Under the pieces are notes generated by a model. That model was given only the letters and a program-made list of their open reading frames with translations, made no database searches and had not been told where the DNA came from. 64,000 nt of DNA, from positions 2,305,266-2,369,265 of the forward strand of contig NW_003314261.1 in NCBI RefSeq assembly GCF_000143415.4, read 5' to 3'. Below are positions 2,623 to 36,325 of the stretch, one piece after another (position 1 is the stretch's first letter; every line of letters starts with the position of its first letter). Source of the stretch: Selaginella moellendorffii. Taxonomy: Eukaryota; Plantae; Lycopodiophyta. The translations under genes were made by a program, and so were the position numbers.

Positions 2623-2646
2623 AAGCTCTATTTTGTTAAAGTGGGA
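2623..2646 (+). repeat. Left TIR, copy 1
   Basis: Reverse complement of 14326-14349 except one base. Confidence 0.95.
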
Positions 2647-3064
2647 ATTGTTATTATCCCACTTGTAAAATAAGGTTTCCAAACCTTTATATAGTATATA
2701 AATATAACAAAATTCAACTGCATTGAGGCACATGCCATTTTATTTTAAACAAGGAAATGTCTACTCAATCACTTCTCCTCCCCCTGCCACTACTTCACCT
2801 CTCTCTTCTCCTTGTCATCATCGTCCAATTTCTTTCCATCCTTTTAATATTGGCTCAGTTGCTCCGAGTCTAGGTGGAGCCCAAGTCCCCATTCAATCTT
2901 TACTTTCCCCTTATTAATAAAACAACTTCGTAGACTTCCAATAACATGCTGTAACACTTCTAGTGTAATGCAAATCCTCTCAAAGAATTGTCTTTTAATA
3001 TTAATACAATGGCATGGAACCCCATGCCATAATAAGTTACATTTTTAAATAAATACATGCCATC

Positions 3065-3927
3065 TCAGACTGTTATTTTTTGCCTCCAACGCCTATACAA
3101 TAATCTTGGAATTTCATCACTCTCCACACTATCAGGATTTAAACCCAATAGTAATGCCATCTCTTCTCTAATACGTCCACGCTCATGTTCAGTGGTTGAA
3201 GAACCCATCCGGTTGAGTAGATTATGGAGATGCGGATAGTGCTTGGCTAGACAATATACATGCCATAAATGATGACTGGTGTCTGTCCGATCAAATGGCT
3301 TCTGATATACCGTTCCATTTGCCATTTGGTTGATTTCTGCAGCCACCTCCTGGACTGGCCGGTTCTCTATCACCATCGCTCCAAGCCGTTTTGCAAGGTC
3401 CCCCAGAACATACGGTTTCTTCTCCCTAGTTTCCATACTGCAAGAGATGGGGTGCACTGCATATGTGTGCGTGTTCGCTGCAGTTTTAATCGGCGAGTCA
3501 TTGATGATGAGGATTTCACTTGAGCTAGCAGTCCGGTTCATCACTACAGCCTCTGGCTTGACGAAGATGGGCTTGCTACCCCTCACATGGACCATAGTCA
3601 AGCAATCCTCCTGCGTTAGGAGAAAGTCAAATGGTAATATTACTCGCGTCTGATCGTGCATCATCTGTAGCAACGTTAATGCATTGTGGCGCATCATGGA
3701 TGTCCAAACTCCCAATTGCAAATTGAACCCGGCCCTCTGTTTTAAGTGTCGCATGGTCATTATTAGATCCCGCAGTTTCTCCCGTGTGATTAATGTGAAT
3801 CTGTCTCTTTTGACCAACTTGCGACCGCAGGCTTTGGAGGGTGCAATGACATTCGAGGACGAGCCACGCTCATGGGAGAAAAGGACACCGTTCAGATCAA
3901 AAATGATACAGTACCTTCGCCGTGACT
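3065..3927 (-). CDS. Terminal exon: FCP1/NIF-type HAD phosphatase-like domain
   Basis: IIFDLNGVL (HAD motif I variant), LGVWTS, KPIFVK, LIINDSPIK: order and spacing of FCP1/NIF-family motifs. Confidence 0.8.
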
Positions 3928-6900
3928 CTGAAATGAAATGCGTCAGCATAAAAAATGGTACAAGTCAATTTTACCATCTACAATATTAGCGAATGGTGCT
4001 CTCGATGGTCGTTGAGAGGGTTTTGGTCGAGGAAACGTGAAGGGCGGAAATACTCTCCTCTGCAATGTGGGGTCAATCGCATCCGATGGCGTGTGGGCAC
4101 ATGCCATTTCAGCTGTAGACTCTGGTACAACTGGCTCAACAGTGGCATGGGGTGGTTCTGATGGCGTGTGATCACACGCCATTTCAGCTGGTGCCTCCGT
4201 TGGCAAAGTGGACATGACCGAACAGGCAGCAGGGGTGGTGTAGGGAGGTTCCAACGGCGCGTAGTCAGACGATTAGGCACACGTTGAGTCCGTTGGAAAT
4301 GAGGATACGACCGGCTCGGCGGCTGGGGCGGCCTCATGCGGGTCCAATGGCGCCTGGTCACCGTCAGTTGGATACGTGGACAAGATTGACTCAGTGGTAT
4401 GGGCAGCATCAAGTGGAGCGTGGTCAGCTTGCTTGGCGTTGATATGGATAGTAGCCTCCACCAGCTCTGATGACTCTTTCAGGTAAGTAGAGTCCACTGG
4501 TGGATCCATATGCATGTCCAAATATCTCCCTTCGATTGAGATGGTATCCTCCCGTGCTACTAAAAACAAACTCATTAGCACATTGAATCGACTATACTGT
4601 ATTTGCCATCAACTGCTATTGAGGAACTAGGACCGATATCACTTGGGTGCACTGCTGATTCTGAAGGATTGGACATACGTTTCGACCCTTGCTTGGCACT
4701 ATCCTTCCTCGACACTAAAGGCTAGAGTTTGTAAATTCAACTGAATAATCTCTACTTACCATTTGCTCTGCGACCTACATGGACAATGTTAGAAATGGTA
4801 AAAGGTTAGGAATGGATGTACTATTATTTACCTGATGGTTTGTCTTGTATGACCTTCCTCCGCTGCTCTTTGGCCACCTCAGGCTGGCCATCGTCGTCAT
4901 CATCGTCGTCGTTGTTATTCTGATCGTCACCATTGTGAGGACCATCCAAGTCCTCTTCGTCCTCCTCTTCTTCGTCCTCCTCTTCTTTGTCCTCCTCTTC
5001 GTCCTTCTGCTCTTCCTGCTCATTATCTTTCTCTGGCTCCTCATCCCCCTCCTGCATTTCTTCCATAGGCTGCTCAGGCTGGATGGCTTGTTCTTCCAGG
5101 ACCATCTTGGGAAAATCATCTGGCCGAGTCTCCATCTCAAAATACAAGACATCCATAGCCTGTTTTAGTGCGTGACCTAGGACCGTATCCTCACCCAACT
5201 GTCTTAACATGGTTTCTGCACGTTCTTGCACCCTTCGAAGACGACGAGATGAGAAAAACGTGGCCCTGACTTGAAAAACATCCCTCATCCATTGTACCTC
5301 TCCATTGAGATTGGGGAAGGGGAGTCCGCCATAGGAATCTGAGTCAGGAGGTGGTGACTGCCTGCTTTCACTCAGCCCTTGATCTGCAATGAATGGCATG
5401 AGCACACACGCCATAACCGCGAGGCATTACCTATCATCTTTTCGTTGCCCTTTTTCCTTTTCGAATCAAATGCCTCTGATCTCGACGACTGTCCAACGTG
5501 CTTTCGCTTTTTATGACCACTGTCAGTTTGAGCTTGGCTGGTGCTTGCCTGTTTTGCCTTTGAAGAAGTGTCTCCTGCAAGGAATGGCATGAGACCACAC
5601 GCCATTGCAAATATAATTTGTACCTCCTTTTTTCCTATTGCTTGTCTGTTTGTCCTTCTTCGATGCGCCACCAGTGCACTTTTCAGTCCTCGTGTCTGAA
5701 TATTCACAACGATCTATAATCAAAATGGCGTGAGGCCTCACGTGACCTTACCTTGTGCAGGTTGTGAGCTCGGCCCAACATGGGTATCTTCAACAGTAGC
5801 TGTTATCGCCGTTTCAGCATCTGGGGGTGGCCACGCTCCTACATACAGAGCTTGTGAGATAACATTTAAACTTAAAGTGTGTACTCACCAGGTTCGCAGA
5901 GAAGATACTGTTTTTCTTTGGCAACTGTAATTATATGCTCCATTGAAGTCACCTCTTCAATGGAGTTTGTCACCGCAACACACGGGACACCCTTGAGTAG
6001 TGCGGCTCAAAAGAATAGTCCGCCACAGTTGTACTCGACAACGCATTTGCCCTTGGAGTCGGAAGCAGGTGACCCACCCGCTATTGCGTTGAAGACCCAG
6101 CTGAGCATTTCCCATGCTGCACCTGGAGCTTTCTTTGGATTCGAAAGCTCCATAGCCGTCTTCAGTTCCTCAGGCACGGGTAAATTGACCTCCCTCAGAT
6201 CAATTCGATTGGCCTTGTCGAACGAAGCTGGGAAGTCACTCCAGTCCCACTCTGTTGCAGGACCAATAACAAGGGCGAGTGTGAAGATGCGGACATTCGT
6301 CGGTATCTTCTTCTTAGCCATTATCCCATGGATCTCCCGCATCTCCTTGCCTTTCAACCGAGCCTTCACCTCGTTCAAGGCCTTCTAGAACTTGTGATAG
6401 AATTCGGAGTCATAGATCATATAGTGGACTGAAGATTCCACCTCCGCAAGTCCCACCATTAAGTCAATGATGGATCTGACTTCGTCTGCATGAGTGATCT
6501 CCTCGTTTGTGAAGTCCATCACATAAAAGATGTTTTTGACCTGCTCATCTCCACGGGAAACGATGCTCCTCCACCTTTGATCCTCATCCAAATTCAAGTA
6601 TACCCGGTAAGGTTCTCGATAGGCCTCTGCTGCGGGGTCGAGCTGTTTCTGAAGCCGGCGGTCGACATCAATCTTAATGAAATTTGGATACTGATCCAAC
6701 TTCTCAGCTTTACTTTTCGTGGCATCCCGCAGCAGATCGATGAACTTGGGGGCCCCCTTCACGTACTCGTCGATGTCTTCATTTGACAAATCCAGCACTT
6801 CCATCATCTCTTGCGTGGTGTCGATGCTCACCCTCTCCACGGCCACTTGCTCAAAGATCCAATCCTTCAATAGCGCACGAGCTCTCAGAGTCGTGCACAA

Positions 6901-8684
6901 GTCCTCGTATGTCACAATATGGCCGAGAGTCATTTTGGTCTTGTTGAAGACTACCTCACCACGTAGAAGAGCATTAGCCACTGTCAGAAGGTCATCGTCG
7001 TCTAGAGACCGCGAGAAACGCAAGGCGTTGAGCTTCAAATCATTGGGCTTCCGGCCGTCCTCCACACCCATTGAGTTTGGCAACTCCCCGTCATGGTACC
7101 TCCTCAGCACATCTACCCATTTGTCAAAAACAACTTTTGTCGAGAGTAGAATGTTATGGATGCTGAGTGTGTCATTGACCCCTAGTGTTTTCAAGAGAAG
7201 ACTCGAGAATTCCTGCAATGGAAATGGCGTGAGGCCACATGCTATGCCACATGCAACGAGGCTTACCTGCCAGGCGCTAGTTGCTAGTGCACGTCCTTGT
7301 CCTGGTTTTTGTGGCTTCTTTAGTTGAACCCAGAGCTTCTGTGTTCGTGCCAATGTCTCGTGCAGACCCGATTTGTAGCACGTTTCTTGCTTGACATTCT
7401 GCGCGTGGGAGATGTATATGATAGATCGGAGGGGCGAGTTGCCTTTTATCAGGCGGACAACTCTTGTCTTGAAGACTTTCTTCACCTCCTCGCCCACCAT
7501 AATATCCACAACTATCTCTTGCATCGCCAAGTTAGAATGCTGCCCGGAGACGGCATAGAACCGGATGTTCTGATCGTCCAACACCTTCCTATTGATCAAG
7601 TCTGGAAACCTCGTCTCGCCCTTCATTGTTCGGTAGTAGGGGATCACGTCTGCGATGTCGGGTGTTACTGGACTTGCCAGCATCTTCTGCTTCAGTTTCT
7701 CCACCCACTCATCAGATACTAGCCTGTGGTTGTATTTGCTTTGGATGTCGATACGGCTCACGTCAATTGTATATACTTTGTTGGAATAGTAACAAGTACT
7801 ATTATCTGCGACGATTTTTGCTGCCTCTTCTTGCTCTTTCTGCTCTTTGCGGCTCTTCTTTTTGGTGGGTGTAGTGTTCGAACCCGAGGCAATGGCATCA
7901 CCGAGTAGCTTCTTTTTTGGAGGAGAGTCGGACGTCGGCTTGAGCTTGACCACCCTTTTCTGCTTCGGGGTAGTTTCTAGATAGACCCCCTTCCCCTTTG
8001 CTTCGCGAACTGGAGTCACTCTCAACGGCTCAATGTTGGAATATAGTTTTTGAACATCGCCGTAGGTGAGGTCCATGGATTCCATGTGATCTTCATAGAC
8101 CCGCAGCGTCTTTGAAATTGTGGGCCTCCTGGACAACCTCTCCCTAGCTCCCTCTAAGAATTCCTCATAGCCGCTGCCCCCCTCCGGGAAGCCGCTAGGA
8201 TGTGCAAGGTGGATCTTGAAGGCAGACGCTGTCTCTACCACAAGTGCCAGTCCATATTCTTGCATGGAACTGCATGGAGTGTCTGTCACTTGGATGAGGA
8301 TCCCCATGCATTCTTTTCTCCCACCATCTGTGTTGTACAGCCTCAGATCCTCGCCTTCCATCCCGAAAGTCCAACTGGTGAGCTCCTCCCCCTTCTCTAC
8401 ATCCACATTGACAGTGGCTGGAAGAAGAACGCAATTCCTCGCCTGTTCAGAAATGCACAACAATTAGAGCTGACAGATGAAAAGCTAGCAGCTGGAAATA
8501 ACGTGAGGCCACACGCCATTCACCACTGCATCAGATGTCTTGAGGCTGCATCCTAAGATGGCATGAGGCTACACGCCATCTGTAACCGGACTGCACTCGA
8601 GAGCCCAATCGGTGCATGCCAATGTTGCTACTGAATGGCATGTGGCCTCATGACATTTTCTACTTGGCCTAAAAGACTTACCAT
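3065..8684 (-). pseudogene. Spliced transposon cargo gene (~1,600 aa): ParB/DGQHR-like + degenerate beta-class DNA MTase-like + acidic linker + FCP1/NIF HAD-like domain
   Basis: ATG at 8684-8682. Frame-preserving GT-AG introns at 8443-8681, 7213-7266, 5839-5888, 5696-5751, 5575-5623, 5384-5430, 4775-4831, 4715-4759, ~4560-4597 (or 4560-4678) and 3928-3974. Premature stops at 6385, 6007 and 4273; the first two are sense codons in copy 2. Confidence 0.75.
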
Positions 8685-8884
8685 TTGAAGCCGAATGGAG
8701 GCGTGACAACCGGACTCGCTGGTGAATGTGCACTGTGTGTGCAGCGGATCATAGCAGCAAGGCTACTCTGCCACTTACAGTTGGAGAGTGGCGCTGAAAT
8801 CTCCCGGGACACCAAGTGGGCTACGTGTGGGTGGCGGAGTGGGCGGCGGAGTTGGCGGCGAAGTTACAAACTGGGTGTGTCTTG

Positions 8885-9200
8885 AAGTGGACGCCGATGC
8901 ACACGACCGTGATGCGAGTGCGATGCGAGCGCGAGTGGACGCCGATGCACACGAGAAACCTGTAGAGAAGTGGGAGCGCGATGTGAGCGCGCGTGTGCAA
9001 GCGCGAGTACGAAGCAAAATGCAAAACCTAACCTCACACACGTGAAATGTCACGACGGTTGGTAATCCCGCCACGTCATCATTCCTCGGACTTGGGCGCC
9101 ACTATTAATTTCTGGATCAGCGCGCGCATGCGTGAAATCCAAAAGAAATCCGCAACGTCATCATTCCTCGGACTGCATGCACGCGAAATCCAAAAGAAAG
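8885..9200. repeat. Short direct repeats upstream of the cargo gene
   Basis: GTGGACGCCGATGCACACGA x2, ACGTCATCATTCCTCGGACT x2, GAAATCCAAAAGAAA x2. Confidence 0.7.
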
Positions 9201-10049
9201 ATCATGATTGGGATATCATTTAATACTCTCGCTATATTTATACCATGCATGATTGGATATTCCAAAGCATCTTGTATTTCCAAAAATGCCAGATGTTCAG
9301 CTAAATAAATTGTCAGAGGATTTGATGTGACGTTCAAGCGTGTGGGCTCATGCAATTTTGATCCCAAAAAATGCACCAAAAAATGCTCGGCGTCATCTAG
9401 CGTTATCTCTTGAGTGGCGTGGGGCCGCATGCCATTTTCAGGAGCACATAGGAGTATATTCCTAGAATATTCTGACACGCGCGAGATTGTTTTGAGTTTC
9501 CTGGAGATCCAACCGTTAGATCGCAACTAGATTTTACAGAATGGTATACAATGTCCTTCTTGATGACCCTGCAAAGAAGCATCTCGATCGGACATTCCCA
9601 AGTAAATAAAGCTGTTTCTATTTTTGGTACAAGTAAACTTTATAGCGTGTGGGCTCATGCAATTTTGAACCCAAAAATGCACCAAAAAATGCTCGACTAG
9701 CATTATTCTTTGTATGGCGTGTGGCCTTATATTGCCATAAATGGACGTACACACACAGCATAATTATTCCTTTACACGGTGAATAATCTTGGCGCGGATC
9801 ACTGACATGGCATGGCAAAGTTCGAATCACTGACATGGCACAGCTGGATCGAGGCAAGGACATGATGTGACAAAGTTCAACCTCCGACAGCAAAGTCTAG
9901 AAGCTACTCAGTTTGAAATTTGTCAGAGGAATCATAAGATCTGGTTTGTCAGAGGATTTGATGTGACGTTCAAGCGTATGTTATTTTTGAATTCTCAAAC
10001 TCATTCCTAGGTCTATCATTTTTGTGCGCCGTGTTCTTGGTTCCGCTGA

Positions 10050-10240
10050 GCGCAGTGAGCGCTGCTTGTGTAAGCGGCGTTGTGAGCTGTGGTTTATGCG
10101 TCTACAAGCGGTTGCGGCATTGCGAGCGCCATTGCGAGCGGCAGTTTATGCGAGTGGCAGTTTGTGCGAGCGGCGCTACGAGCAGTTGTGGTGTTGTGAG
10201 CGGCGCTACGAGTAGTTGCAGTGTTGCGAGCGGCACTGTC
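10050..10240 (+). repeat. Degenerate GC-rich tandem repeat upstream of transposase
   Basis: Recurrent TG(C/T)GAGCGGC..CTACGAG..GTTG units; the array is shorter in copy 2 (~31220-31370). Confidence 0.6.
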
Positions 10241-10591
10241 TTTGGTGTGGCTACCGCTTCCTCTTGATATTCGGCACTTGTGCTTCCTGGTATGTTCACC
10301 ATGGAATGGTTTAGGACCACATTTAGAAATGGCATGAGGCCACATGCCATCTTGGGCCCTTGCAATTTCATGGCTAGCGTATTGTCATGTATGTTTTTAC
10401 TTGCCTGCAGCTGTGTGTATATCAAGATGGCATGAGGCCTCATGCCAATTTTGTGAATGCGAAATTTCACATGGGTGTCAATAGCATGTTTGAATAATGG
10501 CATGTGGCCTCATGCTATTTGGTATGTTATAATTTAGGCCATTCTCCAATCATTTTTTGTATGGTCTTAACTTCTTTTTTGCACTTTCAGA

Positions 10592-13500
10592 ATGGCCTTC
10601 AGGGTTGGGGAAAAAGTTTACATTTTGAATGGTGGGAAGAGAGTTGCAAAAGGGACCCTTGTGTCTATGGATCGGAACTTTGTTATACACTGTGAAAGGC
10701 TTGGGGAAGGCAATGCTGCTGTATCAGTAGAGACTGTCTTCGATGGGAATGTGGTCGCTATTGAACAAGGACAGATGGTCATCGGGGTAAATGTTGTTGT
10801 CGCCTTGAAAAATCTTTAGAAGAAAGCAGATGTTGGGGACAGCGCAAGTGCGACGCATGTTCCCTCCGTGGATCTTAAGAACCGTGCTACATGGATTCAG
10901 GCAAAGGTGTTTCTAAACAACCCCGAGGGGGAGGTGGTAGCTGAGGGCTTAGCCACAGTTGTCGATCCAAGAGATGCGGTTGCTAATCAAGAATTGGGCT
11001 GGGATGATATTGGAGTTGCGATTTTAGAGGTTGTTGACACAGAAGAAAACAGTCTGACTATTGGAAGCATTGTGCGGTGGACATTGAGGCATTTAGTGTT
11101 TGAGAATGTGAAGGATTCACAATCAAACACCACTACAACTGATGACAGAACATCTCTTCATGGGAAAAGAAAGTACACCTTCCTAAAGCGCAGCCAAAGG
11201 GATCTGAGCAACGAACCGACAAGGCAGAAAATGGCGATGGAGGTTCGAATGGTCTCGACAGTTGCTTGTTGCAAGAGGAGGTGCTGTCAACATGCTGATT
11301 GGGATGCTATTGAAGAGGAGAGAGCAAGATACAAGACATTGTCCTGGAAGGCAGCTTGCAATTTTGTGTATGAGGCATTACGGTCATCTGTTGATGCTTC
11401 AGAACATCAGGTGGGGGGCATGGTCTTCCAGAGGGGTTTGGTCTGCATGAAGGCATGGAGAATCATTTATGGAGTCCCTCGAACCACATTCTACAGAATC
11501 AAAACTGAGTTCGAGGAACAAAGGGTACAACAGGCAGTCCATGGGAACGACGGTACGCACAAAACCAGGGGTCATGTTGTATATGGAGAGGCAATCTTCA
11601 AGAGGTTTGTCGAGACATGTAGCGAGCAGCAACCACATAAAACCCGCCTCTTGGAAGATGGAACACGAGACACCCAACGAGTTCTCCTTTCCATGTATAC
11701 CAAGGGGGCCATATTGGAAGATGTGAATCGGGAACTCTAGAGTAATGGCTACAGGAAGCTGAGCCAATCTAGATTTAGTAGATTGTGGAGCAACAGGTTC
11801 AGGGATGTGAGTATAGGAAAGTACTCCAGCTTTTCAAAGTGTGACGAGTGCACTGCTATCAAAATGGCTTTGTCGAAGAATTCTTGCAGCGCTCAAGAGT
11901 GAGAGACGTTGGTTAGAAGGCGGCTCGACCACAACATCGAGCAGAGAAGCTGCAAGACTGCATATTATCATAACAGGATTCTCTTCATGGAGAGACCTGA
12001 CTCTTACCTCTGCATCATCCACGACAAAATGGACCAGAAAAAGACGTGCTTACCTCGACTCAATCCTGCCCCCAAGGCAATCTCTTCATCCATGCAGCTG
12101 CCTGTGTCTCTGTTTGGCATAATCGCTCATGGGCATGGTGCCCAGAACTATGGGAACTTCTTTGTACCTCTATGGGGTGGCGGGGGTGCAAACATGATGA
12201 TTGCGTCCTTAGCAAAACACTTAAGGTCTCTGCAAAGTGCGCAGACTGAGCTGAACGGCCAACCCTTGCATAAGGCCCTTGTCGGTCGAACCCCATACAG
12301 GGTTCAGCTGGAGGAGGAGCAAAGGCTTGCAGTATCGCGTGGGGCCCCATGCCATCCCAGTGAATATGTTGGCCGTCAGATTGTAGGGTTATCACGTGAG
12401 GCCTCATGCCATTCTAACGAGGCTGGTCGCCCGGTGAATGCACAGCCTCATCCAAACGAAGTAGAATCTCAAGGAAGTTCTTGCGGCCGATGTGGCCTTC
12501 CACCCCATCTTCTGCTCCAAACAGACAATACTGGCAGTGAGAACAAAAATATGTACGTCTTCGCGTACTTGGCGATGCTTGTTGCCAAAGGCATATTTGA
12601 AACGGTTACACTTGGCTTTCTCATGGTTGGGCACACTCATGAAGACGTCGATGCCATGTTCAGTCACCTGGCAAAGTCCCTCCGGCGATCCAATGTCCTC
12701 ACCCTCCCACAACTCTACGATGAATTCCAAAATTGCATCAAAGGCACTGTTGAAGCTGCACTTGTGACAGAGGTTCCAGACTTTAAGGGGTTTGTAAAAT
12801 GCTACATCAGGGACGGATCCGAAACGCTGATTGGCCACTCCAAGCCTCTTCAGTTTCATTTCAGCATGCGTGACGGTGCTCCAGTGATGAGGTACAAGAT
12901 GAGAGAATGGGACACAGTGTGGCTGCCAGTGGATGGCATTGAACTCTTCAAGAGAGATCCCATAACTGGGGAACCTATGATTCCTCAGGGTTCCCCACGG
13001 CCGATGCACCCGGATGGACTCAAAGACCAGGAAAGTATAGTGGCCGGGATTAGACAGCATATTGCCTTCTGGAAGAGGGGGTTGGTGTTTGGTGGGGAAT
13101 CCTATTTTAAGAGGTGCAAGCCTTTGCTCGAATACTGGGAGAAGATTATATCTGCTATCCAAAATGGGCTGGTTGTATATGAAGAATTGGAAGAGTCTTT
13201 TTGGCCAGAACCCAGAGCACCAGATAGTAGCGGAACAATGTCCTTTGGAAATGCAGTGACAGATAACGATGTTGAGGATCACTATTGTGGGCCGAGGAAC
13301 AAGAAGCTGGATTCAGCATTCAATCCAGTACAGCTCTGCAAAGGAATGGTCGTGCTTGTCAGACCCAGTAATAAAAAACAAATGATATGGGTGGGGCGCT
13401 GCATCACTGATGCAGAGGAGGATGCGGAAACTAACTCCTTCAATGTAACTGTGGAGTGGTTCAAGCCAAGTTCCGGATATACAAAGGATTGCCTAAAAAA

Positions 13501-13660
13501 GAAATGGGTGCTGAATCCAAGGGATCCCAGCATGAGCATATTGGTGGATAATGTTGTGCATGGTTGGATGCGGAAGCAGAGTGCCACCATCACCTTGCCA
13601 GACCATGCAAGAGATGCAGCAAGAGCATTCATAACTCGGGTTCAAGGTGAGATTCATTAA
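10592..13660 (+). pseudogene. Sola-like DDD transposase (1022 codons; stops at 10817, 11738, 11900)
   Basis: ORFs 10592-10819, 10868-11740 and 11909-13660 share one frame. Motifs CCKRRCC, FSKCDEC, IIHDKMDQ, LQTDNTGSENKN, FLMVGHTHEDVDAMF. Same 3069-bp span as copy 2. Confidence 0.85.
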
Positions 13661-14325
13661 TATTCCTTTACTAAGTTTATAATGTATTTTATTTCAAGGT
13701 GAACAATTCGAATCTGAATCAGAGGAGGCGTGATGGCATGTGGCCCTTTGCACTAGTATATCTTAATACCGGTCTGAGAAATAGAATGGCATGTGCCCTC
13801 AGGCCTTTTACTAAATCACTTTTGAAAGAAATGCAAGCCTCTATGTCGTAAAAAAAAGGTACTAGAGAAATTCCTTAATAATATGAATGTTATTTAGTTT
13901 CATGAAAATACACTAAGGGTCAAATGAGTTAAATGACTTCTCCAGACTAGCAATGCCTCTTGCTACACCTTCACAATTAGATTCGTTAGAAAAAGATAAC
14001 ATTGAATAATATCTAAATGTTCTCACCATTAAGTTATATGTCTGGCTAATAGGAATGACGTTCATCTTGGAAAGCTCACCACACGCTCAATGAACAAACA
14101 AATAGTGTGTGCGCGCATGCCATCGCTCTTCTTTAGCTTCAGATTCGGCTTGTTCACCTTGACAATGAGATTTATTATACAACTAGATGGACTCAGTCTG
14201 GACACAAAGTCACCGCGCTAGTCACCATGCCCCAGATATGTCTAGCCCCTGGACAAAAAACATATAATTTCACATCATTTTCAAATACTTGAAAATTTGT
14301 ACATAGTCCCATTTTACTGAATAAA

Positions 14326-14349
14326 TCCCACTTTAACGAAATAGAGCTT
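14326..14349 (-). repeat. Right TIR, copy 1
   Basis: TCCCACTTTAACGAAATAGAGCTT, identical to 36302-36325. Confidence 0.95.
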
Positions 14350-25697: not shown

Positions 25698-25769
25698 AAG
25701 CTCTATTTCGTTAAAGTGGGAATTGTCATTATCCCACTTGTAAAATAAGGTTTCCAAACCTTTATATAT

Positions 25770-28700
25770 GCTTTTACCCTTCCTCCTCTGCCCTGGTCGG
25801 TTGTCCATCTCTTTGTCTACAGCGTCTGAAAGCTGTTTTGTAGGTAGCCTAATTTGAGGTTCACGACGTCTCCTTGGCACTTCAACTGTATATTATTGCA
25901 TCAACACATGCAACATCCCATAATATTTTTAAGTTACCTTTCATAAAGTTTTCCATTGGTTCAACTCGTTCCCCTGAAATACAAACTTAGATAAGTGCAT
26001 GGGGCCATATGTCATGATAGTACCTGTTTCAGAACTCTCCTTATCACTCTCCGAGGCCTCCCCCTCCTCCACTGGAGGCACGTTGTTCCATTCGATTTCC
26101 TCGACGCGATCTGCAAGAACATTAGTTAATTGCGTGGGGCCACACGCCATCAAACCTTCAAGTTCTTGTCGTGAGGCCTGCGCTGCTTGCCCTAGTCTCT
26201 TTGGAATTTGAGCTGCAAGAAGCAATGGCATGAGAATTCACGTATAACAAAAATGATTGGTACCTCTCGTCCGTTGTACTTGGCTGGTGCTTGCCTGTTT
26301 TGCCTTTGAAGAAGTGTCTCCTGCAAGGAATGGCATGAGACCACACGCCATTGCAAATATAATTTGTACCTCCTTTTTTCCTATTGCTTGTCTGTTTGTC
26401 CTTCTTTGACACGCCACCAGTGCGCTTTTCAGTCCTCGTGTCTGAATATTCACAACGATCTATAATCAAAATGGCGTGAGGCCTCACGTGACCTTACCTT
26501 GTGCAAGTTGTGAGCTCGGCCCAACATGGGTATCTTCAATAGTAGCTGTTAACGTCGTTTCAGCATCTAGGGGTGGCCACGCTCCTGCATACAGAGCTTG
26601 TGAGATAACATTTAAACTTAAAGTGTGTACTCACCAGGTTTGCAGAGAAGATACTGTTTTTCTTTGGCAACTGTAATTATATGCTCCATTGAAGTCACCT
26701 CTTCAATGGAGTTTGTCACCGCAACACACGGGACACCCTTGAGTAGTGCAGCTCGAAAGAATAGTCCGCCGTAGTTGTACTCGACAACGCATTTGCCCTT
26801 GGAGTCGGAAGCAGGTGACCCACCCGCTATTGCGTTGAAGACCCAGCTGAGCATTTCCCATGCTGCACCTGGAGCTTTCTCTGGATTTGAAAGCTCTATA
26901 GCCGTCTTCAGTTCCTCAGGCACGGGTAAATTGACCTCCCTCAGATCAATTCGATTGGCCTTGTCGAACGAAGCTGGGAAGTCACTCCAGTCACACTCTG
27001 CTGCAGGACCAATAACAAGGGCGAGTGTGAAGATGCGGACATTTGTCAGTATCTTCTTCTTAGCCATTATCCCATGGATCTCCCGCATCTCCTTGCCTTT
27101 CAACCGAGCCTTCACCTTGTTCAAGGCCTTCCAGAACTTGTGATAGGATTCGGAGTCGTAGATCATATAGTGGACTGAAGATTCCACCTCCGCAAGTCCC
27201 ACCATTAAGTCAATGATGGAGCTGACTTCGTCTGCATGAGTGATCTCCTCGTTTGTGAAGTCCATCACACAAAAGATGTTCTTGACCTGCTCATCTCCGT
27301 GGGAAACGATGCTCCTCCACCTTTGATCCTCATCCGAATTCACGTATACCCGGTAAGGTTCTCAATAGGCCTTTGCTGCGGGGTCGAGCTGTTTCTGAAG
27401 CCAGGGGTCGACATCCCTCTTAATGAAATTTGGATACTGATCCAACTTCTCAGCTTTACTTTTCGTGGCATCCCGCAGCAGATCGATGAACTTGGGGGCC
27501 CCCTTCACGTACTCGTCAATGTCTTCATTTGACAACTCTAGCTCTTCCATCATCTCTTGCGTGGTGTCGATGCTCACCCTCTCCACGGCCACTTGCTCGA
27601 AGATCCAATCCTTCAATAGCGCACAAGCTCTCAGAGTCGTGCACAAGTCCTCGTATGTCACAATATGGCCGAGAGTTATTTTGGTCTTGTTGAAGACTAC
27701 CTCACCACTTAGAAGAGCATTAGCCACTATCAGAAGGTCGTCGTCGTCTAGAGACCGCGAGAAACACAAGGCGTTGAGCTTCAAATCATTGGGCTTCCGG
27801 CCGTCCTCCACACAAATTGAGTTTAGCAACTCCCCGTCATGGTACCTCCTCAGCACATCTACCCATTTGTCAAAAACAACTTTTGTCGCGAGTAGAATGT
27901 TATGGATGCTGAGTGTGTCATTGACCCCCAGTGTTTTCGAGAGAAGACTCGAGAATTCCTGCAATGGAAATGGCGTGAGGCCACATGCTATGCCACATGC
28001 AACGAGGCTTACCTGCCAGGCACTAGTTGCTAGTGCACGTCCTTGTCCTGGTTTTTGTGGCTTCTTCAGTTGAACCCAGAGCTTCCGTGTTCGTGCCAAT
28101 GTCTCGTGCAGACCCGATTTGTAGCACGTTTCTTGCTTGACATTCTGCGCGTGGGAGATGTATATGATAGATCGGAGGGGCGAGTTGCCTTTTATCAGGC
28201 GGACAACTCTTGTCTTGAAGACTTTCTTCACCTCCTCGCCCACCATAATATCCACAACTATCTCTTGCATTGCCAAGCTAGAATGCTGTCTGGAGACGGC
28301 ATAGAACCGGATGTTTTGATCGTCCAACACCTTCCTATTGATCAAGTCTGGAAACCTCGTCTCGCCATTCATTGTTCAGTAGTAGGGGATCATATCTGCG
28401 ATGTCGGGTGTTACTAGACTTGCCAGCATCTTCTGCTTCAGTTTCTCCACCCACTCATCAGATACTAGCCTGTGGTTGTATTTGCTTTGGATGTCGATGT
28501 GGCTCACGTCGATTGTATATACTTTGTTGGAATAGTAACAAGTACTATTATCTGCGATGATTTTTGCTGCCTCTTCTTGCTCTTTCTGCTCTTTGCGGCT
28601 CTTCTTTTTGGTGGGTGTAGTGTTCGAACCCGAGGCAATGGCATCACTGAGTAGCTTCTTTTTTGGAGCAGAAGAGTCGGACGTCGGCTTGAGCTTGACC

Positions 28701-29433
28701 ACCCTTTTCTGCTTCGGGGTAGTTTCCAGATCAACCCCCTTCCCCTTCGCTTCGCGAACTGGAGTCACTCTCAACGGCTCAATGTTGGAATATAGTTTTT
28801 GAACATCGCCGTAGGTGAGGTCCGTGGATTCCATGTGATCTTCATAGACCCGCAGCGTCTTTGAAATTGTGGGCCTCCTGGACAACCTCTCCCTAGCTCC
28901 CTCTAGGAATTCCTCATAGCCGCTGCCCCCCTCCGGGAAGCCGCTAGGATGTGCAAGGTGAATCTTGAAGGCGGATGCTGTCTCTACCACAAGTGCCAGT
29001 CCACATTCTTGCATGGAACTGCATGGAGTGTCTGTCACTTGGATGAGGATCCCCATGCATTCTTTTCTCCCACCATCTGTGTTGTACAGCCTCAGATCCT
29101 CGCCTTCCATCCCGAAAGTCCAACTCGTGAGCTCCTCCCCCTTCTCTGCATCCACATTGACAGTGGCTGGAAGAAAAATGCAATTCCTCGCCTGTTCAGA
29201 AATGCACAAAAATTAGAGCTGACAGATGAAAAGCTAGCAGCTGGAAATAACGTGGGGCCACACGCCATTCACCACTGCATCAGATGTCTTGAGGCTGCAT
29301 CCTAAGATGGCGTGAGGCTACACGCCATCTGTAACCGGACTGCACTTGAGAGCCCAATTGGTGCATGCCAATGTTGCTACTGAATGGCATGTGGCCTCAT
29401 GCCATTTTCTACTTGGCCTAAACGACTTACCAT
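25770..29433 (-). pseudogene. Cargo gene, copy 2 (ParB-like + MTase-like; FCP1 exon absent, extra low-complexity exons present)
   Basis: ATG at 29433-29431. ORFs 28376-29209, 27362-28372 and 26618-27343 share one frame with two CGA>TGA stops. Homology to copy 1 ends near 26281; the 3' boundary is approximate. Confidence 0.75.
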
Positions 29434-30452
29434 TTGAAGCTGAATGGAGGCATGACAATTGAGGCCGGACTCGCTGGCGAATGTGCACTGTGTGTGCAGC
29501 GGATCGTAGCATCAAGGCTACTCTGCCACTTATAGTTGGAGAGTGGCACTGAAATCTCCCAGGACGCCAAGTGGGATGTGTGTGGGTGGCAGAGTGGGCG
29601 GCGGAGTTGGCGGCGAAGTTACAAACTGGGTGTGTCTTGAAGTGGACGCCGATGCACACGAGCGCGATGCAAGCGCAAGTGTGATGCAAGCACGAGTGGA
29701 TGCCGATGCACACGAGAAACCTGTAAAGAAGGTAGATGAGCGCGAATGTGAGCATGAGTGTGCGTGCGTGAGTACGAAGCAAAATGCAAAACCTAACTTC
29801 ACACGCGCGAAATGTCACGACGGTTGGTAATCCCGCAACGTCATCATTCCTCGGACTTGGGCGCCACCATTAATTTCTGGATCGCCGCACGCATGCATGC
29901 AGGTGAAATCCAAAAGAAATCCGCAACGTCATCATTTTCCTCGGACTGCATGCACGTGAAATCCAAAAGAAAGATCATGATTGGGATATCATTTAATACC
30001 CTCGCTATATTTATACCATGCATGATTGGATGTTCTAAAGCATCTTGTATTTCCAAAAATGCCAGATGTTCAGCTAAATAAAGAATGGTATACAATGTCC
30101 TTCTTGATGACCCTGCAAAGAAGCATCTCGATCGGACACCACATGAGACCACATGAGCCTTACAATGTTTCAGGGGCATTTGCCATAGATCCGACCGTTA
30201 TTTTGCTCCAAGATTCTACAGTTTGGTGTGCATTGACCTTTCCATCGATACTACAAAGGGACATCACAATCAGATGCGGGATCACAAGAAACCAACTTCA
30301 CTAACTCTGGTTTCACCAAGATCTACGTAAGGAGTTATGAAATGAAAGGACCCTCTCTATTGAAATGTGTTTATGGTCATAGGGGCATTGTGACATATCA
30401 AAAGATTTTGCATCAAGTTCTGTATTTGCATGTTTATCAAGCTACTGAATTG

Positions 30453-30479
30453 CTAAACCCTAAACCCTAAACCCTAAAC
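30453..30479 (+). repeat. Interstitial plant telomeric repeat / telobox cluster
   Basis: CTAAACCCTAAACCCTAAACCCTAAAC, three full CCCTAAA units. Confidence 0.8.
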
Positions 30480-31627
30480 ATTTGGCAAATGCTGTGTGAA
30501 GAAAGATGCCCTTTCTGGGCAAATGCTGTAAGAGGCAGATGCCGAACAGATGTATCTCAGGCTAGCGAAGGGGACAAACGAAAGCTAGCTATAAACATGA
30601 CGGGATGCAAATAGATTACTAGGCTAGTCCTGCGAAAATCAAAAACCATAATTGAAAACATTGAAAATGCAAAAAGAAAGGTTTATAATATTTTTGAATT
30701 TTAAGCAACCAAAGGAATGTAAGTAGGGCATGTGTTTGTAAGTTTAAAAATGCCTCAACCACTTAAATTCCCAAGTAAATAAAGTTGTTTCTATTTTTGG
30801 TACAGGTAAACTTTATAGCGTGTGGGCTCATGCAATTTTGAACCCAAAAATGCACCAAAAAATGCTCGACTAGCATTATTCTTTGAATGGCGTGTGGCCT
30901 TATATTGCCATAAATGGACGTACACACACAACATAATTATTCCTTTACACGGTGAATAATCTTGGCGCAGATCGCTGACATGGCATGGCAAAGTTCGAAT
31001 CACTGACATGGCATAGCTGGATCGAGGCAAGGACATGATGTGACAAAGTTCAACATCCGACAGCAAAGTCTAGAAGCTACTCAGTTTGAAATTTGTCAGA
31101 GGAATCATAAGATCTGGCTTGTCAGAGGATTTGATGTGACGTTCAAGCGTGTGTTATTTTTGAATTCTCGAACTCATTCCTAGGTCTATCATTTTTGTGC
31201 GCCGTGTTCTTGGTTCCGCTGAGCGCAGTGAGCGCTGCTTGTGTAAGCGGCGTTGTGAGCTGTGGTTTATGCGTCTACGAGCGGTTGCGGCATTGTGAGC
31301 GGCAATTTATGCGAGTGGCAGTTTGTGCGAGCGGCGCTACGAGTAGTTGCGGTGGTGCGAGCGGTGCTACGGTACCACTTCATGCCATCTTAGTTCATCA
31401 CTAGCATATTGCCAATAGTTTCTTTACCTGCCTGTAGCTGTGTGTTTATCAAGATGGCATGAGGCCTCATGCCAATTTTGTGAATGCGAAATTTCACGTG
31501 GGTGTCAATAGCATGTTTGAATAATGGCATGTGGCCTCATGCTATTGAGGTTGTTTGGTATGTTATGATTTAGGCCATTCTCCAATCATTTTTTGTATAG
31601 TCTTAACTTCTTTTCTGCACTTTCAGA

Positions 31628-34600
31628 ATGGCCTTCAGGGTTGGGGAAAAGGTTTACATTTTGAATGGTGGGAAGAGAGTTGCAAAAGCGACCCTTATGT
31701 CTATGGATCGGAACTTTGTTATACACTGTCAAAGGCTTGGGGAAGGCAATGCTGCTGTATCAATAGAGACTGTCTTCGATGGGAATGTGGTCGCTATTGA
31801 ACGAGGAGAGATGGTCTTCGGGGTAAATGTTGTTGTTGCCTTGAAAAATCTTCAGAAGAAAGCAGATGTTGGGGATAGCGCAAGTGCGGCGCATGTTCCC
31901 TCCGTGGATCTTAAGAACCGTGCTACATGGATTCAGGCAAAGGTGTTTCTAAACAACCCCGAGGGGGAGGTGGTAGCTGAGGGCTTAGCCACAGTTGTCG
32001 ATCCAAGAGATGCGGTTGCTAATCAAGAATTGGGCTGAGATGATATTAGAGTTGCGATTTTAGAGGTTGTTGACACAGAAGAAAACAGTCTGACTATTGG
32101 AAGCATTGTGCAATGGAAATTGAGACACTTAGTGTTTGAGAATGTGAAGGATTCACAATCAAACACCACTACAACTGATGACAGAACATCTCTTCATGGG
32201 AAAAGAAAGTACACCTTCCTAAAGCGCAGCCAAAGGGATCTGAGCAACGAACCGACAAGGCAGAAAATGGCGATGGAGGTTCGAATGGTCTCGACAGTTG
32301 CTTGTTGCAAGAGGAGGTGCTGTCAACATGCTGATTGGGATGCTATTGAAGAGGAGAGAGCAAGATACAAGACATTGTCCTGGAAGGCAGCTCGCAATTT
32401 TGTGTATGAGGCATTACGGTCATCTGTTGATGCTTCAGAACATCAGGTGGGGGGCATGGTCTTCCAGAGGGGTTTGGTCTGCATGAAGGCATGGAGAATC
32501 ATTTATGGAGTCCCTCGAACCACATTCTATAGAATCAAAACTGAGTTCGAGGAACAAAGGGTTCAATAGGCAGTCCATGGGAACGACGGTACACACAAAA
32601 CCAGGGGTCATGTTGTATATGGAGAGGCAATCTTCAAGAGGTTTGTCGAGACATGTAGCGAGCAGCAACCACATAAAACCCACCTCTTGGAAGATGGAAC
32701 ATGAGACACCCAACGAGTTCTCCCTTCCATGTATACCAAGGGGGCCATATTGGAAGATGTGAATCGAGAACTCCAGAGTAATGGCTACAGGAAGTTGAGC
32801 CAATCTAGATTTAGTAGATTGTGGAGCAACAGGTTCAGGGATGTGAGTATAGGAAAGTACTCCAGTTTTTCAAAGTGTGAAGAGTGCACTACTATCAAAA
32901 TGGCTTTGTCGAAAAATTCTTGCATCGCTCAAGAGCGAGAGACGTTGGTTAGAAGGCGGCTCGACCACAACATCGAGCAGAGAAGTTGCAGGACTGCATA
33001 TTATCATAATAGGATTCTCTTCATGGAGAGACCTGACTCTTACCTCTGCATCATCCACGACAAAATGGACCAGAAAAAGACGTGCTTACCTCGACTCAAT
33101 CTTGCCCCCAAGGCAATCTCTTCATCCATGCAGCTGCCTGTGTCTCTGTTTGGCATAATCGCTCATGGGCATGGTGCCCAGAACTATGGGAACTTCTTTG
33201 TACCTTTATGGGGTGGCGGGGGTGCAAACATGATGATTGCGTCCCTAGCAAAACACTTAAGGTCTCTGCAAAGTGCGTAGAATGAGCTGAACGGCCAACC
33301 CTTGCATAAGGCCCTTGTCGATCGAACCCCATACAGGGTTCAGCTGGAGGAGGAGCAAAGGCTTGCAGTATCGTGTGGGGCCCCATGCCATCCCAGTGAA
33401 TATGTTGGCCGTCAGATTGTAGGGTTATCACGTGAGGCCTCATGCCATTCCGACGAGGCTGGTCGCCCGGTGAATGCACAGCCTCATCCAAACGAAGCAG
33501 AATCTCAAGGAAGTTCTTGCGGCTGATGTGGCCTTCCACCCCATCTTCTGCTCCAAATAGACAATGCTGGCAGTGAGAACAAAAACATGTACGTCTTCGC
33601 GTACTTGGCGATGCTTGTTGCCAAAGGCATATTTGAAACGGTTACACTTGGCTTTCTCATGGTTGAGCACACTCATGAAGACGTCGATGCCATGTTCAGT
33701 CACCTGGCAGAGTCCCTTCGGTGATCCAATGTCCTCACCCTCCCACAACTCTACGATGAATTCCAAAATTGCATCAAAGGCACTGTTGAAGCTGCACTTG
33801 TGACAGAGGTTCCAGACTTTAAGGGGTTTGTAAAAGGCTACATCAGGGATGGATCCGAAACGCTGATTGGCCACTCCAAGCCTCTTCAGTTTCATTTCAG
33901 CATGCATGACGGTGCTCCAGTGATGAGGTACAAGATGAGAGAATGGGACACAGTGTGGCTGCCAGTGGACGGCATTGAACTCTTCAAGAGAGATCCCATA
34001 ACTGGGGAACCTATGATTCCTCAGGGTTCCCCATGGACGATGCACCCGGATGGACTCAAAGACCAGGAAAGTATAGTGGCCGGGATTAGACAGCATATTG
34101 CCTTCTGGAAGAGGGGGTTGGTGTTTGGTGGAGAATCCTATTTTCAGAGGTGCAAGCCTTTGCTCGAATACTGGGAGAAGATTATATCTGCTATCCAAAA
34201 TGGGCCGGTTGTATATGAAGAATTGGAAGAGTCCTTTTGGCTAGAACCTAGAGCACCAGATAGTAGCGGAATAATGTCCTCTAGAAATGCAGTGACAGAT
34301 AACGATGTTGAGGATCACTATTGTGGGCCGAGGAACAAGAAGCCGGATTCAGCATTCAATCCAGTACAGGTCTGCAAAGGAATGGTCGTGCTTGTCAGAC
34401 CCAGTAATAAAAAACAAATGATATGGGTGGGGCGCTGCATCATTGATGCAGAGGAGGACGCGGAAACTAACTCCTTCAATGTAACTGTGGAGTGGTTCAA
34501 GCCAAGTTCCAGATATACGAAGGATTGCCTAGAAAAGAGATGGGTGCTGAATCCAAGGGATCCCAGCATGAGCATATCGGTGGATAATGTTGTGCATGGT

Positions 34601-34696
34601 TGGATGCGGAAGCAGAGTGCCACCATCACCTTGCTAGACCATGCAAGAGATGCAGCAAGAGCATTCATAACCCGGGTTCAAGGTGAGATTCATTAA
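31628..34696 (+). pseudogene. Sola-like DDD transposase, copy 2
   Basis: Single frame of 3069 bp; stops at 32036, 32567, 33278, 33524 and 33722, all sense codons in copy 1. Confidence 0.85.
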
Positions 34697-36325
34697 TATT
34701 CCTTTACTAAGTTTCTAATGTATTTTATTTCAAGGTGAACAATCCGAATCTGAATCAGAGGAGGCGTGATGGCATGTGGCCTTACGCCATTCCTAGGTGA
34801 GATGATACAAATAACAAGTATAAATTCTTAGTTGTTCTAGCAAATCTTACTTAAAGTTCAAGGTGAACAAGCCGAATATGAATTCATCGGATTGTTATAA
34901 CAAATTGCGAGGTGATGGCATGAGGCGATACGCCATTTGAGAGTGGTAGCCATTCCTATATGAGATGAGTGAAATATTTATTAGAAATACCTCATTCAAT
35001 TGTGCACTTCTAAGTCTTGGTCCACTCAGTACTGTTTGCATGTTTCTATTTTAATTCTTTCTCTAAAATGTTATTTAGCATGTGGCTTCATGCCATTGCT
35101 CTCCACAATCATGCATTGAATTTTTCTATCCTTGCATAATACTTCTCCATATATATAGCATGTGCGCACATGTGATATGGTTCATTAGGCCTGATATAGT
35201 GTGTGAGGTAAAACAAAGATGATGTGACATATGCATTTACCAATCACACTTGCATAAATCTAATAATATGGCGTGTGGCCCATATTAATGGCACATAAAC
35301 CCATATTGTGGGCTTACGTGCTTTATATACCATCATTCCCTTGCAGCGTGTGTGTTGGTTTCCTTTTATAACACAACGAACTCCATATTTTAGGGTGAAG
35401 AGCGTTCTCATGGCAAGCACAAAATCTGTAAGTGAGGCAAAAAAGGAGACGGAGAAGGAGATAGGTGAAGATGTAGAATATATAAGTCTTCCAAACTCCC
35501 CGTACTATACTCCAGGTGATCATTTTTCTGAACAAACGGCAACATTAACAACTATCGAGAACGCCCCAGTAACGTCAGAGACAACAATCCAAAGCAAAAC
35601 AACTGACCGGAGAAGGATGATAGTATCACTGAGAGTACCAAAAAGGAGGTGTCCACTAGCGCTTAGGCTTATAATGGCGTGTGCCCTCATGCCATTTACT
35701 TGATCACCAAATACCTTTTTCCCTTTGCACTAGTATATCTTAATACGGTCTGAGAAATAGAATGGCATGTGCCCTCAGGCCTTTTACTAAATCACCTTTG
35801 AAAGAAATGCAAGCCTCTATGTCGTAAAAAAAAGGTACTAGAGAAATTCCTTAATAATATGAATGTTATTTAGTTTCATGAAAATACACTAAGGGTCAAA
35901 TGAGTTAAATGACTTCTCCAGACTAGCAATGCCTCTTGCTACACCTTCACAATTAGATTCGTTAGAAAAAGATAACATTGAATAATATCTAAATGTTCTC
36001 ACCATTAAGTTATATGTCTGGCTAATAGGAATGACGTTCATCTTGGAAAGCTCACCACACGCTCAATGAACAAACAAATAGTGTGTGCGCGCATGCCATC
36101 GCTCTTTTTTAGCTTCAGATTCGGCTTGTTCACCTTGACAATGAGATTTATTATACAACCAGATGGACTCAGTCTGGACACAAAGTCACCGCGCTAGTCA
36201 CCGTGCCCCAGATATGTCTAGCCCCTGGACAAAAAACATATAATTTCACGTCATTTTCAAATACTTGAAAATTTGTACCTAGTCCCATTTTACTGAATAA
36301 ATCCCACTTTAACGAAATAGAGCTT

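What the first reader, a model, noticed from the sequence alone, without database searches (positions are those of the whole stretch)
3065..8684. Scattered ORFs join into one 11-exon gene
Ten canonical GT-AG introns, mostly 45-57 bp, link an ATG-only first exon (8684-8682) through ORFs 6385-8463, 6007-6378, 5523-5741, 5372-5707, 4824-5414, 4273-4581, 3943-4254 and 3065-3949 with the frame preserved at every junction. One intron (7213-7266, 54 bp) is hidden in frame within the long ORF. The ORF track alone hides this fusion protein.
Basis: seen in the sequence. Interest (0 to 1): 0.8.

Follow-up and report, generated by a model that had tools for sequence, protein, structure and literature searches.

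The report
Plant transposon's ParB–phosphatase accessory gene
The scattered reading frames are the eleven predicted exons of one gene inside a cut-and-paste plant transposon; this copy is broken by three stop codons, but the intact family would encode a ParB-like protein with a likely dead DNA-methylase and a predicted phosphatase domain that probably binds a palindrome repeated throughout its own element.

Summary
The gene model holds, with corrections. A blind splice search recovered the same eight 3' introns, and a Selaginella homolog lacks exactly the 18 residues of the hidden intron. This copy is a pseudogene: three in-frame stops (6387, 6009, 4275) and one GC donor (4606). High-depth family contigs have sense codons and GT at all four places. 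No spliced RNA was seen, so the full fusion is inferred.

The gene lies opposite a DUF7869 transposase in an 11.7-kb element with terminal inverted repeats and 4-bp target duplications (Sola1-like). Domains: ParB/Srx fold, a degenerate N4/N6 DNA-methylase, an acidic tail and a borderline FCP1/NIF domain. A 22-bp palindrome occurs 35 times in the two element copies and never in the 41.6 kb outside, and it sits in 5 of 10 introns.

ParB-methylase cargo in Sola1 is published (Ectocarpus), and this scan noted it before in two other genomes. New here are the FCP1-like tail, the decayed methylase motifs and an exchangeable 3' tail (copy 2 has a different one). Verdict: new variant of a known kind.

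The parts
2623..14349 (.). DNA transposon copy 1 (11.7 kb): 24-bp near-perfect terminal inverted repeats with AAGCT...AGCTT ends, 4-bp target duplication AAGC, inserted in a LINE endonuclease/RT frame
   Evidence: LINE ORFs either side; X2 and X4 contigs end at about 2623 (table 8 offsets)
8682..8684 (-). exon 1, ATG only (inferred)
   Evidence: donor GTAAGT, acceptor with CTAAT branch site, both kept in copy 2; no RNA
7267..8442 (-). exon 2: N-terminal region, basic linker, ParB/Srx-fold domain (about 7378-7797, SGQHS motif)
7213..7266 (-). intron 2, 54 nt, hidden in frame; holds a palindrome
   Evidence: 18-residue gap in Selaginella XP_024528744 at this place
5889..7212 (-). exon 3: helical region, then degenerate beta-class N4/N6 DNA-methylase-like domain (about 5908-6630); premature stops at 6387 and 6009
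5752..5838 (-). exon 4, low-complexity tail
5624..5695 (-). exon 5
5431..5574 (-). exon 6; similarity to copy 2 ends inside it at 5533
4832..5383 (-). exon 7, acidic
4760..4774 (-). exon 8, 15 nt
   Evidence: a 4-nt indel of the family majority falls in the next intron at 4733
4607..4714 (-). exon 9; followed by a GC donor here, GT in the family majority
3975..4556 (-). exon 10, Pro/Thr-rich; premature stop at 4275; two palindromes in coding sequence
3065..3927 (-). exon 11: FCP1/NIF-like HAD domain (about 3467-3913, DLNGV motif) and stop
   Evidence: Pfam PF03031 E 1.9e-4, 21.6 bits against a cut-off of 21.8
3009..13807 (.). 18 copies of a 22-bp palindrome (ATGGCRTGWGGCCWCAYGCCAT, up to 4 mismatches): 7 in introns 1, 2, 4, 5, 6; 2 in exon 10; 9 elsewhere in the element
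10571..13660 (+). DUF7869 (PF25273) transposase frame, divergent from the cargo gene, with 3 internal stops
25698..36325 (.). copy 2 (target duplication AGTG; about 96% identical over shared parts), with a different 3' tail at 25769-26278 and no FCP1 exon; 17 palindromes

Best explanation
This is a stop-codon-broken copy of the predicted 11-exon accessory gene of a Sola1-like DNA transposon, whose intact product would likely use its ParB-like half to bind the element's own 22-bp palindromes and bring a likely inactive methylase fold, an acidic tail and a predicted FCP1-like phosphatase domain onto element chromatin. Shown: the element anatomy, the stops, the palindrome's confinement to the element, and sense codons in the family majority. 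Predicted by computation: the exons and the three domain assignments. Inferred: the single mRNA; binding of the palindromes (probably as a dimer, as ParB/Noc do at parS/NBS, established knowledge); and a role in keeping the element's own copies transcribed or mobile against host silencing, in the manner of VANC proteins. The methylase fold would be a scaffold or DNA reader, because the catalytic DPPY reads DFTN here. The micro-introns would serve to house binding sites inside the gene without costing coding sequence.
For: Element: TIRs and 4-bp TSDs in both copies, DUF7869 transposase E 2.7e-43. Gene model; family majority open at all 3 stops and GT at intron 9, its one non-triplet indel inside the ATG-to-stop span lying in an intron. 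Selaginella XP_024528744 reads WQ|EF at the intron-2 junction and ends just after the methylase-like domain; 6 of the 13 hits (P0001, P0005, P0010-P0013) are ORFs that stop just past this junction and 3 (P0006-P0008) begin just after it. ParB fold: VIA-align PadC Z 9.9 (rmsd 3.1, 100 aligned), KorB Z 9.4 (rmsd 11.0, 152 aligned), top 8 rows all ParB/Srx-like; Foldseek top rows Noc/ParB at E 0.007-0.03; ESM Atlas DUF3723 0.97. Methylase fold: profile of 4 cargo sequences against 11 beta-class methylases E 1.7e-4, score 36.6 against 12.7+-2.2 (max 18.7) for 60 column shuffles; PF01555 clusters at 0.87-0.89 (lead only). Palindrome: 35 hits in the two copies, 0 in 41,645 nt outside, 0.03 expected per element. 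Precedent: PMC12477816 and 10.1101/2025.02.11.637652.
Against: No spliced read or contig in 8 runs laid; the few RNA-guess contigs run through splice sites unspliced. No homolog that carries both the ParB/methylase part and an FCP1 domain was found, and the Selaginella homolog ends after the methylase domain. Copy 2 has a different tail without FCP1, so that domain is not a constant part. 0 of 80 DUF7869 loci carried any part of the cargo, though most are short contigs. The FCP1 hit is just under Pfam's cut-off, and PDB, NCBIfam and PHROGs gave nothing for it. The model's mean pLDDT is 55.5 and the methylase region is mostly under 50. DNA binding is untested; the palindromes could be transposase sites. 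Copy-to-copy dN/dS is 0.67 for the cargo and 0.48 for the transposase, which shows little.
Confidence: 0.55

Rival explanations
1. The working gene is only exons 1-3 (ParB plus methylase fold) with a disposable tail; the acidic and FCP1 exons are a captured or recombined passenger that is spliced on but does nothing for the element.
For: Copy 2 shares the gene only to 5533 and then has another tail; X2 holds contigs that diverge at 5531-5536 (loose ends); the Selaginella homolog stops after the methylase domain; retention of intron 3 gives a stop a few codons on (copy 2 ORF).
Against: The family majority keeps an open frame through all listed tail differences, GT at intron 9, and both acidic residues of the HAD C-terminal motif (codon 1497 is D in the majority); X4 has one contig from the element end to 5879, so the FCP1 tail is the common form in that sample.
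Confidence: 0.2
2. The FCP1-like exon is a separate small gene with its own start (an in-frame ATG lies at 3949, inside the proposed intron 10) and is never joined to the ParB exons.
For: ORF 3065-3949 has its own ATG upstream of the DLNGV motif; no RNA links the exons.
Against: Only 47 nt separate exons 10 and 11, with GTAAAA donor, CTGAC branch site, pyrimidine tract and CAG acceptor in phase; the blind search chose this intron.
Confidence: 0.08
3. The gene model is right but the palindromes are transposase-binding (subterminal-type) sites, and the cargo protein has another job, for example as an NTP-dependent partner of the transposase or a regulator of host genes.
For: DNA transposases commonly bind repeated internal motifs (established knowledge); the ParB GERR arginine patch (recalled) is replaced by SGQHS, so clamp chemistry is not shown; no helix-turn-helix was confirmed.
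Against: The palindromes are spread through the interior and introns, not gathered at the ends; inverted-repeat arrays next to ParB-like genes are reported in an unrelated transposon superfamily.
Confidence: 0.14
4. The 3' joins are chance: unrelated ORF fragments stitched by convenient GT/AG pairs.
For: No RNA support; 2 of 500 intron-shuffled controls reached the same cost; the plain count of strict intron candidates (5) is within the Markov range (mean 2.3, max 8).
Against: 0 of 200 Markov controls reached it; all 5 strict candidates are model introns; eight successive phase-1 introns; the majority restores GT and the stops.
Confidence: 0.03

Closest known systems
Sola1-1_Ec32 accessory gene of Ectocarpus (PMC12477816; passages and supplement rows read, figures not seen)
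   Same: DNA transposon with 4-bp TSD and AA...TT ends; accessory gene on the strand opposite the transposase; ParB-like domain plus N4/N6 DNA-methylase domain; proposed to bind and modify its own element.
   Different: Here 11.7 kb with about 24-30 bp TIRs (there 21.5 kb, 282 bp); 1641 codons (there 1104); methylase motifs degenerate; acidic tail and FCP1-like domain added; land plant. Sequence homology to the Ectocarpus proteins was not tested.
Plavaka PAG2/PAG3 accessory genes of Bostrychia (10.1101/2025.02.11.637652; passages read)
   Same: ParB-like domain fused to a modifying enzyme inside a DNA transposon, with inverted-repeat arrays beside the gene proposed as its sites.
   Different: EnSpm/Plavaka transposase; the ParB partner is a 2OG oxygenase and the methylase is on a separate gene with SET; repeats are tandem arrays, not dispersed intronic palindromes.
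VANC anti-silencing proteins of Arabidopsis VANDAL elements (PMC5735166; passages read)
   Same: Element-encoded protein with variable tails; short motif enriched in the element's non-coding parts including introns. A functional analogy only.
   Different: Mutator superfamily; VANC binds a 9-bp non-palindromic motif in tandem arrays; binding and demethylation are shown there and not here; no sequence relation tested.
Bacterial ParB/Noc/KorB/PadC and sulfiredoxin fold
   Same: Fold of residues 216-355, followed by a helical region.
   Different: SGQHS in place of the ParB arginine patch (recalled); CTP use untested; eukaryotic, intron-containing.
Selaginella moellendorffii LOC9650508 (XP_024528744), uncharacterised
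   Same: 25% identity over 217 residues (E 1e-18), same exon junction, same degenerate methylase end.
   Different: 449 aa, lacks most of the ParB domain and the whole tail; whether it lies in a transposon was not checked.

Membership tests
Sola (Sola1) DNA transposon | 4-bp target site duplication | tested here: met
   AAGC and AGTG; feature from PMC10741241 passage
Sola (Sola1) DNA transposon | terminal inverted repeats | tested here: met
   24 bp near-perfect, AAGCT...AGCTT
Sola (Sola1) DNA transposon | DDD transposase homologous to named Sola1 transposases | tested here: inconclusive
   DUF7869 match E 2.7e-43; no hit is named Sola; no Repbase Sola1 protein was available; DUF7869 appears in 0 papers
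Transposon ParB-methylase accessory genes (Sola1-1_Ec32 type) | gene opposite the transposase within the TIRs | tested here: met
Transposon ParB-methylase accessory genes (Sola1-1_Ec32 type) | ParB-like domain | tested here: met
   VIA Z 9.9, rmsd 3.1, 100 aligned to PadC; top 8 rows ParB/Srx-like; Foldseek weak but concordant
Transposon ParB-methylase accessory genes (Sola1-1_Ec32 type) | N4/N6 DNA-methylase domain after the ParB part | tested here: met
   profile-profile E 1.7e-4 over 59 columns at the motif-I end, above 60 of 60 shuffles; no Pfam hit
Active beta-class N4/N6 DNA methyltransferase | catalytic DPPY-type motif IV and FxGxG-type motif I | tested here: not met
   global alignment places DFTN on DPPY and EYNCGG on DPFAGS; relatives read DSAN and DATT
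FCP1/SCP (NIF) HAD phosphatase | Pfam PF03031 at gathering score | tested here: inconclusive
   21.6 bits against 21.8, E 1.9e-4; the majority differs at codon 1497 (N here, D there) and was not scored
FCP1/SCP (NIF) HAD phosphatase | DxDx(T/V) motif I | tested here: not met
   reads DLNGV: first Asp kept, second is Asn; a DLNG subfamily in plants and fission yeast is recalled, from no call
FCP1/SCP (NIF) HAD phosphatase | phosphatase activity on the Pol II CTD | not testable with these tools
   needs an assay
ParB CTPase clamp | CTP binding and sliding from a palindromic site | not testable with these tools
   needs biochemistry; arginine patch not conserved
VANC-type anti-silencing factor | sequence-specific binding to own element with loss of methylation | not testable with these tools
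   only the motif enrichment is shown

The most novel reading that the evidence does not exclude
A land-plant Sola1 lineage turned a bacterial ParB-methylase into a parS-style self-addressing platform: the methylase died, the ParB half loads at palindromes that the element stores inside its own micro-introns (where they double as branch points), and exchangeable phase-1 exon tails deliver different effectors, here an FCP1-like phosphatase acting on RNA polymerase II or chromatin proteins at the element's own copies. That would be a transposon anti-silencing system independent of VANC.
Probability: 0.25. Interest if true: 0.78.

Novelty: new variant of a known kind. Interest (0 to 1): 0.5.

Why it matters
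ParB-methylase accessory genes of algal transposons are proposed, not shown, to bind and mark their own element. This element supplies a concrete test: a defined 22-bp palindrome confined to the element and a domain to assay against it. It also shows the design in a seed-free land plant with the methylase motifs lost and a different enzyme-like domain attached, which suggests that the ParB part is the constant and the effector is exchangeable. For annotation, ORF-level tools miss the gene altogether. This particular copy is dead, so it matters as a family representative.

Tried and rejected
No whole genome was held, so copy number, intact copies and subfamily dN/dS could not be measured. No RNA holder was listed on record. 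Raw RNA runs X8-X10 (about 12% of each read) gave 193, 119 and 251 reads, nearly all on a 40-nt rRNA-like stretch at 8742-8781 and none spliced; their loose flanks differ from those of X1, so they may not be the same organism: no evidence either way on expression. RNA-guess contigs X1 (16 laid), X12 (3) and X20 (1) are unspliced pieces. Word-indexed protein searches with the long ORF (longer proteins only) and with alignment A1 found nothing; the second missed even its own members, so it is uninformative. ParB-motif scans of metagenome (72 candidates) and viral contigs (11) and an FCP1-exon scan of viral contigs (2) confirmed no relative. 0 of 80 DUF7869 loci matched the cargo by tblastn or HMM. 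A single-sequence fold of P0020 failed (pLDDT 32) and was not searched; the FCP1 exon was not folded. PDB sequence searches, NCBIfam, PHROGs and phage tblastn gave nothing meaningful. P0002 and P0003 among the 13 hits are repeat-rich chance hits and were dropped. The first splice-path script started one base out of frame and is superseded; that run's copy-2 null (mean 8.3, min 3, against 6) does not by itself support copy 2's tail introns. The original Sola paper was not held under the id tried, and Iyer 2011, cited by PMC12477816 for similar proteins, was not read. The Marchantia 4mC preprint has no mention of ParB (passages); no link to MpDN4MT1 was tested. No complex was predicted.
Full report
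Setting. The finding lies in a repeat-dense eukaryotic window of LINE and Ty3-like retroelements. It is inside an 11.7-kb element at 2623-14349 with 24-bp near-perfect terminal inverted repeats and a 4-bp target duplication (AAGC), inserted into a LINE frame. A second copy at 25698-36325 has the duplication AGTG. On the + strand the element has a DUF7869 transposase frame (E 2.7e-43). Among its 54 listed relatives the named ones are mostly from the liverworts Riccia and Calypogeia, with a few animals and one alga. A 4-bp duplication fits Sola (PMC10741241 passage), and the AA...TT ends resemble Sola1-1_Ec32 (supplement row). Homology to a named Sola1 transposase was not testable.

The observation. 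Ten introns join ATG 8684 to stop 3065 in one frame of 4926 nt. Nine are 45-57 nt; intron 1 is 239 nt. The joined frame has 4 stops in 1642 codons against 82 and 95 in the other frames. A minimum-cost splice search over 5919-3068 returned the same eight introns and one stop. None of 200 Markov controls and 2 of 500 intron-shuffled controls did as well; the donor patterns were set after seeing the data. Introns are T-rich, 9 of 10 have a branch-point-like pentamer, and introns 3-10 are all phase 1. For the hidden intron 2 there is independent support. The Selaginella RefSeq protein XP_024528744 aligns with an 18-residue gap exactly over the intron's translation and reads WQ|EF as the spliced window does. 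Six other hits end just past that junction and three start just after it, as expected of exons called as ORFs on genomic contigs. The ATG-only exon is the weakest part. Its donor and acceptor are consensus and kept in copy 2, and the residues before the first internal Met align loosely with three relatives, but nothing shows it used.

Corrections. In this copy the frame is kept but not open: TAG 6387, TGA 6009 and TAA 4275, and intron 9 begins GC. Contigs of runs X2 and X4 (one sample; unspliced, depth about 69-110, read here as the collapsed family majority) have sense codons at all three and GT at intron 9. Their one non-triplet indel between ATG and stop lies in intron 8. Of the 40 listed differences to the majority (40 of 78 shown, positions 3197-6670), 24 are non-synonymous, 11 synonymous, 3 stops and 2 intronic; 32 are C-to-T type in this copy, 25 of them in CG or CHG context. 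The transposase frame has 3 internal stops here and 6 in copy 2. This is ordinary decay of a methylated copy after insertion. No spliced RNA was found in 8 runs laid; that is a gap, not evidence against.

The protein. Residues 216-355 of the exon 2-3 product fold as ParB/Srx: PadC Z 9.9 (rmsd 3.1, 100 aligned), the top 8 VIA rows all of this fold, Noc and ParB first in Foldseek though above E 0.001, and DUF3723 clusters first in the ESM Atlas. The conserved core is SGQHS with invariant Arg and Asn downstream. A helical region follows, then a domain whose profile matches 11 beta-class N4/N6 DNA methylases (E 1.7e-4; score 36.6 against at most 18.7 in 60 shuffles). The catalytic DPPY aligns to DFTN and motif I to EYNCGG, so it is likely inactive. 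Exons 4-10 encode low-complexity basic, acidic and Pro/Thr-rich sequence. Exon 11 matches Pfam NIF just under the cut-off, with motif I as DLNGV and, in the majority, both acidic residues of the C-terminal motif. Its activity is unknown.

Two further features. First, a 22-bp palindrome occurs 18 times in copy 1, 17 times in copy 2 and never in the 41,645 nt outside (0.03 expected per element). Seven of copy 1's sites are in introns 1, 2, 4, 5 and 6, and in introns 2, 5 and 6 the palindrome supplies the branch-point-like pentamer at -19 to -21. The 3' 31 nt of introns 5 and 6 are 90% alike (family D16). Second, the tail is exchangeable. Copy 2 matches only to 5533 and then runs through about 510 nt of different sequence with intron-like segments, also phase 1 in the computed path, and no FCP1 domain, up to the element end. 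It may be truncated, so its subfamily could have had more. X2 also holds contigs that diverge at 5531-5536. X4's single contig from the element end to 5879 shows that the FCP1 tail is the common form in that sample.

Mechanism. Best reading (0.55): the intact protein binds the element's palindromes through its ParB-like half and brings the dead methylase fold, acidic tail and FCP1-like domain to the element's own chromatin, helping it stay transcribed or mobile. The anatomy is shown, the domains are predicted, and binding and effect are inferred from ParB biology, from VANC (PMC5735166 passages) and from the algal cases. Rivals: a core gene with a passenger tail (0.2), palindromes bound by the transposase (0.14), a separate FCP1 gene (0.08), chance joins (0.03).

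What is known. PMC12477816 describes a 1104-aa ParB plus N4/N6 methylase gene opposite the transposase in Ectocarpus Sola1-1_Ec32 and cites similar algal cases (passages). The Bostrychia preprint describes a ParB-oxygenase gene next to inverted-repeat arrays in Plavaka elements (passages; its supplements were not seen). PMC4738411 lists ParB-HTH methylase fusions in chlorophytes and chytrids (passages). Two earlier notes of this scan report plant Sola elements with ParB-methylase genes and palindromes in other genomes; I had reached that reading before, and they pointed me to the Ectocarpus passage. These searches cover open-access text only.

Verdict. A real, well-formed gene model of a known kind of transposon accessory gene, in a dead copy, with a tail domain, a decayed methylase and intron-housed palindromes that I did not find described. 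New variant of a known kind; interest 0.5.

Noticed in passing
window 8742-8781 (-): A 40-nt stretch 60-100 nt upstream of the proposed ATG resembles the 3' end of eukaryotic large-subunit rRNA (Rfam RF02543 positions 3338-3373, E 3.8) and draws 119-251 rRNA-like reads per RNA run; it is kept in copy 2. Captured fragment or chance is undecided.
   Followed up: partly
window 25769-26278 (-): Copy 2's alternative tail has its own 45-52 nt intron-like segments, some with partial palindromes, one of 45 nt hidden in frame.
   Followed up: partly
window 34782-35720 and about 30139-30766: Copy 2 has a 941-nt and a 491-nt stretch absent from copy 1; the first holds three more palindromes.
   Followed up: no
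window 12334-12412 (+): Two palindromes lie inside the transposase ORF in a stretch that looks poorly matched in relatives; a hidden intron or variable loop is possible.
   Followed up: no
window 4086-4182 (-): Two palindromes 75 nt apart are translated inside exon 10 as a near-repeated peptide.
   Followed up: no
window 1887-2622 and 14350-17400 (+): A LINE endonuclease/reverse-transcriptase frame is split by copy 1; copy 2 sits in a Ty3-like RNase H region.
   Followed up: partly
window 37000-45000: Two long direct repeats about 5.9 kb apart carry 12-nt and 35-nt tandem arrays, probably LTRs of a retroelement.
   Followed up: no
proteins P0004, P0016-P0018: Selaginella moellendorffii has annotated homologs of exon 3 (helical plus degenerate methylase) at two loci; they could be domesticated or transposon remnants.
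   Followed up: no
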